Shown here piece after piece: positions 44,859 through 47,085 of a stretch of 64,000 nt of DNA; the first letter of the stretch is position 1; each line of letters starts with the position of its first letter. Origin of the DNA: Promethearchaeota archaeon (lineage in GTDB: Archaea; Asgardarchaeota; Lokiarchaeia; Sigyniarchaeales; SOKP01); assembly GCA_016839555.1 (NCBI GenBank), contig JAEOUA010000010.1:1-64000 (forward strand), read 5' to 3'. The position numbers and the translations under genes were made by a program. The notes under the pieces are model-generated. The model made no database searches. It had not been told where the DNA came from and saw only the letters and a program-made list of their open reading frames with translations.

Positions 44859-45953
44859 TTAATATTCTGGATATCCCTCAAAATCTTTTAATTCTTCTTG
44901 AATTTTTTCAGAATTTTTTATATCCGCCTCCGTTGGATACGGGACCTCTGCAAAAAGGTCCACATCAGGAAGATCCAGTTTCTTGCGTACTTTTTTCTCT
45001 TTTGGCCCAAATCCTACGCGAGGGGCAAAGAATTTGATTACCTTAAATTTCACTTTTGAGAACCATTTTTCCCATTCTTCAGCAAATCCACCATTTTCAA
45101 TATGCTTAAGAACATTTTTCTGTATATTAGCAATTTTTTCTACTACTTTATTATATTCTATTTCGTTACTTACAATCCCATATTGAGTCCTTTCAGGATA
45201 TGCTTGGATATATCTTGAGAGCCCGTATTCAGTTATTTTTTTATAAATTGATTTTAATTGTCCCGAAAGAATTAATTCAATCAAAACTGCATCGACAGAA
45301 TATCCCGCTTTCATTAAAATATTCATGGTCTCTAATAAAACCCTTCCAAACGAGGGACCAAATCCTTGTTCGGTGAAAAGATCTAAAACGGCTTCTTGCT
45401 TAAATGTGACTTCAATTGCTCCTAATTTGAGTGTTCCTAAGGCTTTACATAACGCTAATAAATTCTGTTTCGCTTCTCCAGAAGCATTTTGATGAACATT
45501 GATAAAACTAAAATAACTTTTTTTATTCAAAAAACGTTCTCTCACACCAATACCAATCATACGTGGAGCAATGAGTAACACATCTACAAAATCTGGTGGT
45601 TTCAGCAGATCAAAAGCAATATTATACCCGCTTGCAAATATTAAACTCTGGTTTTTATGTAAATTAGGTAAAATCTTTTCTTCAAATACCTCATTCATTA
45701 TCTCATCTGGAATTAAATAGAATAATATATCTGCCTTTTTAATAGCTTCTTCTATTGAATATACTTTAAATCCGTCTTTTTCTGCTCTCTGTTTATATTC
45801 ATCATCTCTATTGCCTACTATTACATCTAATCCAGAATCTCTCATGTTTAAAGCTTGAGATCTGCCTTGATTTCCATATCCTATCATCCCAACTATTTTA
45901 TTTGTTAAAATTGAAAGATCTCCATCTTTTTCATAATATATATTAGTTTTCAT
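44859..45953 (-). CDS. ilvC: Ketol-acid reductoisomerase-like protein, paralog A
   Basis: GYGNQG, ALNMRDSG, APRMIG, DLFTEQ. Confidence 0.85.
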   Translation of the reverse strand: MKTNIYYEKDGDLSILTNKIVGMIGYGNQGRSQALNMRDSGLDVIVGNRDDEYKQRAEKDGFKVYSIEEAIKKADILFYLIPDEIMNEVFEEKILPNLHKNQSLIFASGYNIAFDLLKPPDFVDVLLIAPRMIGIGVRERFLNKKSYFSFINVHQNASGEAKQNLLALCKALGTLKLGAIEVTFKQEAVLDLFTEQGFGPSFGRVLLETMNILMKAGYSVDAVLIELILSGQLKSIYKKITEYGLSRYIQAYPERTQYGIVSNEIEYNKVVEKIANIQKNVLKHIENGGFAEEWEKWFSKVKFKVIKFFAPRVGFGPKEKKVRKKLDLPDVDLFAEVPYPTEADIKNSEKIQEELKDFEGYPEY

Positions 45954-45987
45954 ATTTATTACTTTTTTATTCTATTTCTTCTAATTA

Positions 45988-47085
45988 TTAAAATTGGCTA
46001 TAAAATTTCTTATAAGTTTCATATGTAGTTCTTAGCTCTTTATATTTAGTTAATTGCTCTTTTGAGGGAAGCTTTAGTTCTTGTCCTTTCTCTGGTATTG
46101 AATAATTAAGATTTTTATAGACCTCTTGTTCTAATTTACTAAAATTAGTAGTAAAGGCAAAGTATTTCATAATATTTAATTTTGCAGTGTTTTTATAATG
46201 CTCCCACTCCTGTGAAAATTGACCTTTTTCAATATATTGCAAAATTTTTTTATGTATCTTATCAATATCGCCTCCTACTTTTGCATATTTAACCCCACGG
46301 CTTAAAGAACCATACTGAGATGTTTGGGAGTGAAAATTCATTTGCTTAATTAACCCCACATTAATCATTTTGTCGACTGTATAAATCATTTCTTCTGAAA
46401 GTATTAATTCAATATATATTGCCTCAGCGGGATAACCTGCTTCCATTAAATTTTTAATAGCCCTCATTAATACCTGATTAAAAGCTGCCCTAAAAGTTTG
46501 TTCAGCAAATAATTTTAAGCTGGTTTGTTGCATAAATGACATCTTAATTGCTGCTTTTTTTAAACCTCCAATCGCTTTTGTTAATGCTAATAAATGATTC
46601 AAGGCATTTCTAGAACTATTTTGAGTAATCCCGATAAAAGTAAAAAAGCCCTCTTTATTAATAAATTGTTTTCTTACGACCTCTCCAAGTGCAAGTGGAG
46701 TAATTAACAGTACATCAATATCTTTGGGAACTTCTATAGTGCTAAAAGCCACATAATATCCATCAGAAAAAATGAGTGTTTTTTGTTTATTCAAATGAGA
46801 AATTACTTGTTTTTCAAAAATTTCTTTCATATCTTTATCTGGGAGTAATAAAAATATGAAATCACCCCGTTTGACAGCCTCTGCAATAGAAAAGGTTTCA
46901 AAGCCATCTTTATCTGCTCGCATTTTATATTTTTCATTAGAAATGCCAATTATTACATTAAGTTCCGAATCTCTCATATTTAGCGCTTGAGCTTTTGCTT
47001 GATTTCCATACCCAATAACTGATATTGTTTTATTCTTTAAAAGGGATAAATCGGCATCATTCTCCCGAAAAATTGTAGTTTCCAT
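45988..47085 (-). CDS. ilvC: Ketol-acid reductoisomerase-like protein, paralog B
   Basis: GYGNQA, ALNMRDS, ELILSEEM, HSQTSQYG. Confidence 0.8.
   Translation of the reverse strand: METTIFRENDADLSLLKNKTISVIGYGNQAKAQALNMRDSELNVIIGISNEKYKMRADKDGFETFSIAEAVKRGDFIFLLLPDKDMKEIFEKQVISHLNKQKTLIFSDGYYVAFSTIEVPKDIDVLLITPLALGEVVRKQFINKEGFFTFIGITQNSSRNALNHLLALTKAIGGLKKAAIKMSFMQQTSLKLFAEQTFRAAFNQVLMRAIKNLMEAGYPAEAIYIELILSEEMIYTVDKMINVGLIKQMNFHSQTSQYGSLSRGVKYAKVGGDIDKIHKKILQYIEKGQFSQEWEHYKNTAKLNIMKYFAFTTNFSKLEQEVYKNLNYSIPEKGQELKLPSKEQLTKYKELRTTYETYKKFYSQF

What the first reader, a model, noticed from the sequence alone, without database searches (positions are those of the whole stretch)
44859..47085. Two ilvC paralogs with mirror-image active-site loss: candidate obligate heterodimeric KARI
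Established: class I KARIs build each active site from two chains. One chain gives the Rossmann domain and the DLxxEQ Asp/Glu Mg ligands; the partner gives two later Glu residues and the S-x-T-x-QYG serine through the knot domain. Seen: paralog A (44859..45953) keeps GYGNQG, APRMIG and DLFTEQ but has lost the trans elements (ELILSGQL, YPERTQYG). Paralog B (45988..47085) has lost the cis elements (GYGNQA, TPLALG, KLFAEQ with D->K) but keeps the trans ones (ELILSEEM, HSQTSQYG). Both are full length, co-oriented and 34 bp apart. Inference: neither homodimer should work, while an A/B heterodimer would rebuild exactly one complete site. This would be subfunctionalisation by reciprocal degeneration, paralleling the single-site class II KARI that arose by internal duplication. 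I know of no described heteromeric KARI.
Basis: partly seen in the sequence, partly recalled or inferred. Interest (0 to 1): 0.85.

Follow-up and report, generated by a model that had tools for sequence, protein, structure and literature searches.

The report
Two-gene KARI sharing one active site
Two neighbouring copies of a ketol-acid-reductoisomerase-type enzyme in an Asgard archaeon have each lost the opposite half of a catalytic site that is normally built across two identical subunits, so they most likely work only as a mixed pair with one live and one dead site; no paper found describes this for the enzyme family.

Summary
Two co-oriented, full-length KARI-fold genes lie 34 nt apart on the minus strand: B at 47085..45988 (upstream) and A at 45953..44859. 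All ten quoted motifs are present.

- **Conservation:** among 223 homologs I found 33 A-types, 40 B-types, 134 intact enzymes and no mixed form.
  - A always keeps R131, E187, D191 and E195, and never keeps E232, H252 or T255.
  - B never keeps E187 or D191, and always keeps E226, E232, H252, S253 and T255.
- **Unbiased column scan:** B-only losses fall at residues ≤200. A-only losses fall at 232-255, with one exception (S40).
- **Origin:** with those columns masked, A and B are each one clade, and a single duplication is not rejected.
- **Distribution:** B→A adjacency recurs in two Asgard classes. All 11 pair-bearing genomes hold no other KARI. Relatives carry either a pair or one intact gene.
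- **Structure:** a complex model passes (0.90 against control 0.42), but this may reflect memory of solved KARI dimers.

An obligate A/B heterodimer with one composite site is well supported (about 0.8) but untested at the bench.

The physiological substrate is open. Classical ilvB-ilvH-ilvC-ilvD clusters occur only beside canonical KARIs in other genomes.

This scan flagged the same arrangement earlier in three other Asgard genomes. I found no publication on it.

The parts
45988..47085 (-). Paralog B (P0002, 365 aa), upstream gene. KARI fold. It is the proposed 'trans-donor' subunit, and its own Rossmann-side site is dead.
   Evidence: B-type clade support 100*. E187 and D191 are lost in 40/40 B-types; E226, E232, H252, S253 and T255 are kept in 40/40.
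44859..45953 (-). Paralog A (P0001, 364 aa), downstream gene. KARI fold. It is the proposed catalytic 'cis' subunit (Rossmann domain plus Asp/Glu Mg ligands).
   Evidence: A-type clade support 98*. R131, E187, D191, E195 and E226 are kept in 33/33 A-types; E232, H252 and T255 are kept in 0/33 and S253 in 4/33.
45954..45987 (-). 34-nt A+T-rich spacer between B and A. No terminator-like signal, so co-transcription is probable.
   Evidence: B->A spacing is -14 to about +45 nt in other lineages.
45366..45383 (-). A residues 191-196, DLFTEQ: intact cis Mg ligands D191 and E195.
45552..45569 (-). A residues 129-134, APRMIG: intact Arg131, the equivalent of the catalytic Lys130 of canonical KARI.
45255..45278 (-). 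A residues 226-233, ELILSGQL: the first trans Glu is kept, the second is lost (E232->Q).
45177..45200 (-). A residues 252-259, YPERTQYG: trans His, Ser and Thr are lost (H252Y, S253P, T255R).
46498..46515 (-). B residues 191-196, KLFAEQ: the bridging Asp is lost (D191->K). Q187, just upstream, replaces E187.
46684..46701 (-). B residues 129-134, TPLALG: the AP[RK]MIG loop is degenerate (R131->L).
46387..46410 (-). B residues 226-233, ELILSEEM: both trans Glu (E226, E232) are intact.
46309..46332 (-). B residues 252-259, HSQTSQYG: the trans His-Ser-x-Thr-Ser-Gln-Tyr-Gly loop is intact and invariant in B-types.
43997..44815 (-). EamA/NIPA-like membrane transporter, 43 nt downstream on the same strand. 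It is a syntenic neighbour. Whether it belongs functionally is not shown.
   Evidence: An EamA gene and a Ras/Arf GTPase also flank a single intact KARI2-like gene in a Hodarchaeote contig.

Best explanation
A and B come from one tandem duplication of a Sulfolobus-type ('KARI 2', Ser108/Arg131) class I ketol-acid reductoisomerase. The ancestor was a knotted homodimer with two symmetric sites. Each site used the Rossmann domain and first knot helix of one chain (NAD(P)H site, R131, E187, D191, E195), plus E226, E232 and the H252-S253-x-T255 loop of the other chain.

After duplication the two copies degenerated reciprocally. A kept everything it gives in cis and lost what it gives in trans. B did the opposite.

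The functional species is therefore an A/B heterodimer, possibly assembled further as in the dodecameric relatives. It has one complete site (A Rossmann + A D191/E195 + B E226/E232/H252/S253/T255). Every degenerate element is gathered in the other, dead site. The genes are co-transcribed as B->A, which favours hetero-assembly.

The chemistry is inferred to be the two-Mg2+, NAD(P)H-dependent reduction or reductoisomerisation typical of the family, because the composite site is residue-for-residue that of the intact enzymes.

- Shown here: the residue pattern, its conservation, the phylogeny, adjacency, exclusivity and a passing complex model.
- Inferred: physical heteromer, inactivity of AA and BB, substrate and pathway.
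For: 1. Premise in print: PMC5940873 (D191/E195 against E227/E231 on different monomers, with D191 bridging both Mg) and PMC13753588 (pocket = N+C domains of one subunit + C domain of the second).
2. Residue dichotomy: 33 A-types, 40 B-types, 134 intact, 0 mixed.
   - A: R131, E187, D191, E195 kept in 33/33; E232, H252, T255 kept in 0/33.
   - B: E187, D191 kept in 0/40; E226, E232, H252, S253, T255 kept in 40/40.
3. Unbiased scan of the 90 columns that are >=90% conserved in intact enzymes.
   - 14 are lost only in B, all at positions <=200: 10 in the Rossmann domain and 4 in the first knot helix.
   - 5 are lost only in A, four of them at 232-255.
   - 1 is lost in both. Fisher p = 0.0013, descriptive only.
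4. Mean pairwise identity in the same 14 genomes.
   - Rossmann domain: A 0.67 against B 0.52.
   - Segment 216-262: A 0.51 against B 0.78.
5. Tree with active-site columns masked: A clade 98*, B clade 100*, nested in the intact Asgard clade, with mirrored sub-topologies. An A+B single clade is not rejected, and the constrained tree is better by 3.86 lnL (p-AU 0.575).
6. B->A adjacency:
   - G000, G001, G014, G017, G024 and G030;
   - closed genome CP070695.1;
   - two further metagenomic lineages;
   - G168, G263, G275 and G281 of another class;
   - same strand with two inserted genes in one lineage (G012).
7. All 11 pair-bearing genomes have exactly two KARI homologs. Relatives have either a pair or one intact gene, even within the window's genus.
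8. Complex model A+B.
   - ipSAE 0.90 against a best control of 0.42. That mark was reached by 58 of 80 solved complexes and 2 of 110 mismatched pairs.
   - The runs agree in >=96% of contacts, and the partner's pLDDT is >=89.
   - Contacts A:190-B:226 and A:259/260-B:195/196 fit the cis/trans geometry, as does the contact of A's Rossmann loops 28, 82-84, 108-110 and 131-133 with B.
   - A like complex (KARI homodimer) is solved, so the pass may come from memory. It shows likeness, not that these copies bind.
Against: - No biochemical or structural data exist for any A/B pair.
- The complex model cannot distinguish AB from AA or BB.
- A keeps E226 in 33/33 although it would face the dead site. 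B keeps E195 in 16/40 and R/K131 in 39/40. The degeneration is therefore not a clean mirror image, and a residual or different function of the second site is not excluded.
- One A-specific loss (S40 of RDSG) lies in the Rossmann domain and is unexplained.
- No fused B-A protein was found (weak negative).
- In one lineage two genes separate B and A.
- The pathway is unclear.
  - ilvH and bona fide AHAS occur only beside canonical KARI in other genomes.
  - The ilvD-like gene of this family is present with or without any KARI, and in G030 it sits in a sugar-acid-like context.
  - The window's genome lacks a convincing leuB or panB.
Confidence: 0.8

Rival explanations
1. Enzyme plus regulator. 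A is the enzyme in its own right, a homodimer with altered chemistry such as reductase-only or single-metal. B is a pseudoenzyme that regulates, stabilises or scaffolds it, or binds nucleotide, without donating catalytic residues.
For: A keeps the whole Rossmann/cis half and E226. B's Rossmann domain keeps G25, G27 and N28 and remains folded in the model. KARI reductase activity on 2-keto acids can be separated from isomerase activity (PMC5940873).
Against: It does not explain why E226, E232, H252, S253 and T255 are invariant in 40/40 B-types and form the most conserved part of B. It also does not explain why exactly those positions decayed in A. An AA dimer lacks the second Mg(II) ligand and the substrate-binding Ser/Thr loop in both sites.
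Confidence: 0.1
2. Independent neofunctionalisation. A and B form separate homo-oligomers with two new, unrelated functions, and the complementary pattern is coincidental.
For: Both score below the TIGR00465 equivalog cut-off (215 and 204.6 against 226.15). No BCAA context is present. KARI-fold enzymes with other chemistries exist (ApnO, PMC13753588; the BurG entries 7pce and others).
Against: Strict co-inheritance, adjacency and mirrored phylogenies hold in every lineage. No lone A or B was found. A BB homodimer would have conserved trans residues facing no metal-binding Asp. The losses partition exactly along the known cis/trans boundary.
Confidence: 0.05
3. Decaying duplicates. One or both genes are on the way to becoming pseudogenes after a redundant duplication.
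For: Half of the related genomes have no KARI at all. G266 keeps only a 123-aa A-type remnant and G219 has a frameshifted intact gene, so loss does happen in this group.
Against: Both ORFs are full length here and in more than 30 lineages spanning two classes. There are 71 invariant columns in the 32 aligned A-types and 42 in the 36 aligned B-types. Stem branches are modest (0.15 and 0.18). Folds are confident (pLDDT 88-90).
Confidence: 0.03

Closest known systems
Sulfolobus/Saccharolobus-type class I KARI ('putative ketol-acid reductoisomerase 2', PDB 6jcv and related entries)
   Same: It is the best solved relative of A (E 8e-64) and a top hit of B (E 2e-52). The fold, length and subfamily signatures match: GYGNQG, FASGYN (Ser for His107), APRM[IV]G (Arg for Lys130), a two-residue insertion between the trans Glu (E-x5-E), and HSxTSQYG.
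   Different: That enzyme is a homo-oligomer in which every chain carries all the residues. Here the residues are split between two chains, and neither chain is complete.
Canonical class I KARI (IlvC; for example Sac-KARI 5yeq, S. aureus, P. aeruginosa)
   Same: KARI_N + KARI_C architecture, and a knotted dimer whose active site uses both chains (PMC5940873, PMC13753588). The two-Mg ligand set is the same when A and B are combined.
   Different: Homodimer with two equivalent sites. Encoded in ilvB-ilvH-ilvC-ilvD clusters in the Asgard relatives that have it. About 35% identical to A and B.
Class II KARI (E. coli, plants)
   Same: One active site per pair of knot domains, with the symmetry of the ancestral dimer broken after a duplication.
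   Different: Class II duplicated only the knot domain inside one chain and has one Rossmann domain per site. Here the whole gene was duplicated, the chains stay separate (364 and 365 aa, no fused form found), and a second, degenerate Rossmann domain is retained.
Paralog heteromers with shared sites and reciprocal loss of catalytic residues, such as trypanosomatid deoxyhypusine synthase DHSc/DHSp (my own recollection, not checked here)
   Same: Duplication of a homo-oligomer whose sites lie at the subunit interface. Each paralog is impaired alone, and the heteromer has one live and one dead site.
   Different: An unrelated fold and lineage. The partition in KARI follows a knotted, intertwined interface. 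It is inferred here from sequence only.

Membership tests
Class I ketol-acid reductoisomerase (IlvC, EC 1.1.1.86) | N-terminal KARI_N Rossmann domain plus C-terminal KARI_C knot domain, about 330-370 aa | tested here: met
   A: PF07991 4.7e-54 and PF01450 3e-10. B: PF07991 2.3e-48 and PF01450 1.4e-14.
Class I ketol-acid reductoisomerase (IlvC, EC 1.1.1.86) | Scores above the curated equivalog cut-off (TIGR00465, 226.15 bits) | tested here: not met
   A 215.0 bits, B 204.6 bits. Both are also below the cut-offs of NF004017 and NF009940.
Class I ketol-acid reductoisomerase (IlvC, EC 1.1.1.86) | Each chain carries the full conserved polar active-site set (K/R130, E186, D190, E194, E226, E230, S251 equivalents) | tested here: not met
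   A lacks E232, H252, S253 and T255. B lacks R131, E187 and D191. The union of A and B is complete.
Class I ketol-acid reductoisomerase (IlvC, EC 1.1.1.86) | Genomic or pathway association with AHAS (ilvB/ilvH) and DHAD (ilvD) | tested here: not met
   ilvH and AHAS above cut-off occur only in the 8 relatives with canonical KARI. No BCAA gene flanks any pair.
Class I ketol-acid reductoisomerase (IlvC, EC 1.1.1.86) | Mg2+- and NAD(P)H-dependent conversion of 2-acetolactate to 2,3-dihydroxyisovalerate | not testable with these tools
   Needs an enzyme assay of A, B and A+B.
Sulfolobus-type 'KARI 2' subfamily (6jcv-like) | Ser/Arg in place of His107/Lys130, a two-residue insertion between the trans Glu, and an HSxTSQYG loop | tested here: met
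   The subfamily frame, including the insertion, is present in both. Individual residues are lost as described. Both nest inside the intact Asgard clade of this subfamily.
Class II KARI | Duplicated knot domain within one chain of about 490 aa | tested here: not met
   Lengths are 364 and 365 aa with a single KARI_C each. No longer or fused relatives were found.
Obligate paralog heteromer with one live and one dead shared site (works-like class, not a sequence family) | Reciprocal, conserved partition of catalytic residues between co-inherited paralogs | tested here: met
Obligate paralog heteromer with one live and one dead shared site (works-like class, not a sequence family) | Physical A/B complex, with activity only when both are present | tested here: inconclusive
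   The complex model passes (0.90 against a best control of 0.42; mark reached by 58/80 solved and 2/110 mismatched pairs). Solved KARI dimers may drive this result. There is no biochemical test.

The most novel reading that the evidence does not exclude
The A/B pair is a third architectural form of KARI. It is an obligate asymmetric heteromer, and its 'dead' half-site (B's still-folded Rossmann domain plus A's retained E226) has been kept for a new purpose such as nucleotide or effector sensing. The enzyme serves a non-BCAA reaction in Asgard metabolism, for example 2-keto-acid reduction as an electron sink. It would then be a natural, still-separate counterpart of the symmetry breaking that produced single-site class II KARI.
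Probability: 0.2. Interest if true: 0.85.

Novelty: new variant of a known kind. Interest (0 to 1): 0.72.

Why it matters
KARI is heavily studied as a herbicide and antibiotic target and for biofuel engineering. It is described only as homomeric class I or internally duplicated class II. I found no paper on a heteromeric or pseudoenzyme KARI.

A naturally fixed 'intragenic complementation' pair would be a clean case of how a homomer becomes an obligate heteromer by reciprocal degeneration. It is conserved in dozens of Asgard lineages, with single-gene intact relatives available as controls. It would also give an independent view of the symmetry breaking behind class II KARI.

It is directly testable with two small soluble proteins.

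Practically, annotation pipelines name these genes inconsistently: 'ketol-acid reductoisomerase', 'NAD(P)-binding domain-containing protein' or 'hypothetical'. Metabolic reconstructions of Asgard archaea that count either gene as a stand-alone IlvC, or take it as evidence of BCAA prototrophy, are probably wrong.

Tried and rejected
1. Reading the ORFs on the + strand gave only stops. The genes are on the - strand.
2. ilvD co-occurrence as a proxy for a BCAA role was uninformative. An ilvD-like gene of about 650 bits is present in the family with or without any KARI. In G030 it lies beside a GFO/IDH/MocA oxidoreductase, an MFS_2 transporter and an aldehyde:ferredoxin oxidoreductase.
3. Ketopantoate-reductase role: no panB was found in the window's genome (genome 92% complete), so there is no support.
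4. Gene neighbourhoods of intact KARI2-like genes showed no conserved metabolic partner. The only recurrence was Ras/Arf-GTPase and EamA synteny.
5. Rosetta-stone search for fused B-A proteins of 640-2000 aa found none (the tool itself calls this weak evidence).
6. The bacterial-type promoter/terminator scan of 43800-47700 did not differ from shuffles and does not suit archaea.
7. Tyagi 2005 and Cahn 2015 are not held. I wanted them for the explicit class I / class II residue equivalence. The cis assignment of D190/E194 to the Rossmann-bearing chain therefore rests on PMC13753588, PMC5940873, the model contacts and the co-loss of Rossmann and helix-1 residues in B.
8. 'Assembly artefact or recent duplicate' is rejected. 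A and B are only 41% identical, and the pair recurs in closed genomes.
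Full report
**Observation.** The window holds two co-oriented ORFs on the minus strand. B (P0002, 365 aa, 47085..45988) comes first and A (P0001, 364 aa, 45953..44859) follows, with a 34-nt A+T-rich spacer. 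Translating the + strand gives only stops. A and B are 41% identical, with no indel over about 330 residues. Both have KARI_N and KARI_C domains. Both fall just below the ilvC equivalog cut-off: TIGR00465 scores 215.0 and 204.6 against 226.15.

**Which KARI.** The best solved relative is the Sulfolobus/Saccharolobus 'putative KARI 2' (6jcv; A 8e-64, B 2e-52). A, B and that enzyme share the subfamily frame:
- GYGNQG;
- FASGYN (Ser for His107);
- APRM[IV]G (Arg for Lys130);
- a two-residue insertion between the two later Glu (E-x5-E);
- an HSxTSQYG loop.

In A numbering, the catalytic equivalents are R131, E187, D191 and E195 on the Rossmann-bearing chain, and E226, E232, H252, S253 and T255 on the other.

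**Premise.** Sac-KARI binds Mg(I) through D191+E195 and Mg(II) through D191+E227+E231. E227 and E231 come from one monomer and D191 from the other (PMC5940873).

**Is the pattern conserved?**
- *Related genomes.* I searched 41 relatives and aligned every homolog. Three kinds appear:
  - canonical class I KARI, in 8 genomes;
  - a single intact KARI2-like gene, in 7 genomes, three of them in the window's own genus;
  - B->A pairs, in 7 genomes.
- *Protein collection.* I classified 223 homologs: 134 intact, 33 A-type, 40 B-type, 16 canonical and none mixed.
  - A-types keep R131, E187, D191, E195 and E226 in 33/33. They keep E232, H252 and T255 in 0/33 and S253 in 4/33.
  - B-types keep E187 and D191 in 0/40, E195 in 16/40 and the third Rossmann Gly in 4/40. 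They keep E226, E232, H252, S253 and T255 in 40/40.
- *Checks that do not use the classifying residues.* The classes above were defined by those residues, so I added three checks.
  - Unbiased column scan. Of the 90 columns that are >=90% conserved in intact enzymes, 14 are lost only in B, all at positions <=200. These are 30, 31, 51, 82, 84, 107, 111, 129, 132 and 133 in the Rossmann domain, and 187, 191, 199 and 200 in the first knot helix. Five are lost only in A (40, 232, 252, 253, 255) and one in both (203). Fisher p = 0.0013, descriptive only.
  - Domain-wise divergence in the same 14 genomes. Rossmann identity is 0.67 in A against 0.52 in B. In segment 216-262 it is 0.51 in A against 0.78 in B.
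  - Tree with all active-site blocks masked. A is one clade (98*) and B is one clade (100*). They are nested together inside the intact Asgard clade, with mirrored internal topologies. Holding A+B as one clade gives a better likelihood than the free search (+3.86 lnL, p-AU 0.575). This fits one duplication followed by co-inheritance.

**Linkage and exclusivity.**
- B lies immediately upstream of A in G000, G001, G014, G017, G024 and G030.
- The same order holds in the closed 4.94-Mb genome CP070695.1 (15-nt gap). It also holds in two further metagenomic lineages (14-nt overlap and 21-nt gap).
- It holds in four genomes of another class: G168, G263, G275 and G281.
- In one lineage two unknown genes are inserted between B and A, which stay on the same strand (G012).
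- Every one of the 11 pair-bearing genomes has exactly two KARI homologs.
- Genomes have either a pair or one intact gene, never both. Singles at 56-59% identity to A proved to be intact sister-type genes.
- No lone full-length A or B was found. The only fragment is a 123-aa A-type remnant in G266.

**Logic of the mechanism.** A BB dimer would present perfectly conserved trans residues to sites that have no bridging Asp. An AA dimer would present intact cis halves to partners that lack the second Mg(II) ligand and the Ser/Thr loop. Only AB yields a complete site, and it then places all degenerate elements in the other site. No homomeric model explains why the trans segment is the most conserved part of B and the least conserved part of A.

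**Complex model.**
- ipSAE was 0.90, 0.90 and 0.92 against a best control of 0.42. That mark was reached by 58 of 80 solved complexes and 2 of 110 mismatched pairs.
- The runs agree in >=96% of about 400 contacts, and the partner's pLDDT is >=89.
- Contacts A:190-B:226 and A:259/260-B:195/196 match the expected geometry. So does the contact of A's Rossmann loops (28, 82-84, 108-110, 131-133) with B.
- KARI homodimers are solved, so this pass may come from memory. It cannot rank AB against AA or BB.

**What is not supported: the BCAA label.**
- AHAS above its cut-off, ilvH and a high-scoring ilvD occur only in the 8 relatives with canonical KARI, clustered with it.
- Two of those genomes also carry an intact KARI2-like gene, so the subfamily is a separate paralog line.
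- The ilvD-like gene of this family (about 650 bits) and an ALS-like TPP enzyme occur whether or not any KARI is present. In G030 the ilvD-like gene lies beside a GFO/IDH/MocA oxidoreductase, an MFS_2 transporter and an aldehyde:ferredoxin oxidoreductase.
- The window's genome (92% complete) has only a 150-bit leuB-like hit against a cut-off of 353, and no panB.
- Neighbourhoods of pairs and of intact genes share no metabolic partner. The only recurrence is Ras/Arf-GTPase and EamA synteny, which fits a duplication in place.

The chemistry is therefore inferred from the residue-perfect composite site and from the in vitro KARI activity reported for archaeal relatives. The physiological substrate is open.

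**Imperfections of the mirror image.**
- A keeps E226 in 33/33.
- B keeps E195 in 16/40 and R/K131 in 39/40. The window's B is the single exception, with Leu.
- A loses S40 in the Rossmann domain.
- B's Rossmann domain remains folded and keeps G25, G27 and N28.

A residual role of the second site, for example ligand binding, cannot be excluded.

**Novelty.** Full-text searches found no paper describing a heteromeric or pseudoenzyme KARI. This scan flagged the same arrangement in three other Asgard genomes, and follow-up agents reached the same reading. Those are AI notes, not independent evidence.

I rate this a new variant of a known kind. It belongs to the class I KARI subfamily, with an architecture not described for this enzyme. 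It is analogous in principle to other paralog heteromers with one live and one dead shared site, and to the symmetry breaking of class II KARI.

**Verdict.** Confidence in an obligate A/B heteromer with one composite site is about 0.8. The pathway is unknown.

Noticed in passing
G030:C22 (L058 2058-10169); also G002:C15, G012:C116, G013:C25, G014:C107, G019:C34, G025:C7, G032:C1, G038:C1: An ilvD/EDD-family dehydratase (about 650 bits to TIGR00110) lies next to, or within about 6 kb of, an ALS-like TPP enzyme (about 410 bits, below the AHAS cut-off) in many Lokiarchaeial genomes, whether or not they have any KARI. In G030 the pair is flanked by a GFO/IDH/MocA oxidoreductase, an MFS_2 sugar transporter and an aldehyde:ferredoxin oxidoreductase. 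This looks like sugar-acid metabolism rather than BCAA synthesis.
   Followed up: partly
window 45834-45836 (A residue S40) and A-type orthologs: Ser40 of the RDSG motif in the Rossmann domain is 93% conserved in intact enzymes, 100% in canonical KARI and 92% in B. It is lost in most A-types (kept in 27%). It is the only A-specific loss outside the trans segment, and I have no explanation for it.
   Followed up: no
L055 (G266:C1:1711934-1712230) and L057 (G219:C3): The closed genome G266 keeps only a 123-aa C-terminal remnant of an A-type gene. G219 has an intact-type KARI2-like gene split by a frameshift or stops. The family is evidently being lost in some lineages: about two thirds of the 301 Asgard genomes sampled gave no hit.
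   Followed up: partly
proteins P0089, P0090, P0091 (507-512 aa, metagenomic): Intact KARI2-like enzymes fused to a C-terminal SCP2 (PF02036) sterol/lipid-carrier-like domain. This may hint at a hydrophobic or non-BCAA substrate for part of the subfamily.
   Followed up: no
window 47620-48033 (+): A Ras-family small GTPase ORF, as called from its first GTG, matches the Pfam Ras profile only from position 43 of 162. The P-loop must therefore lie upstream of any canonical start.
   Followed up: no
window 49563-50423 and 50627-51484 (+): Two tandem ORFs of about 285 aa with no Pfam match lie downstream of an Mrp/NUBPL-type P-loop ATPase (48479-49354) and the Ras-like GTPase.
   Followed up: no
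L049 (GCA_048886685.1, JBHLKM010000003.1) against window 43997-48033: The order Ras/Arf GTPase - KARI2-like - EamA transporter is shared between a Hodarchaeote with one intact gene and this window with the B/A pair. This suggests the duplication happened in place in an old syntenic block.
   Followed up: partly
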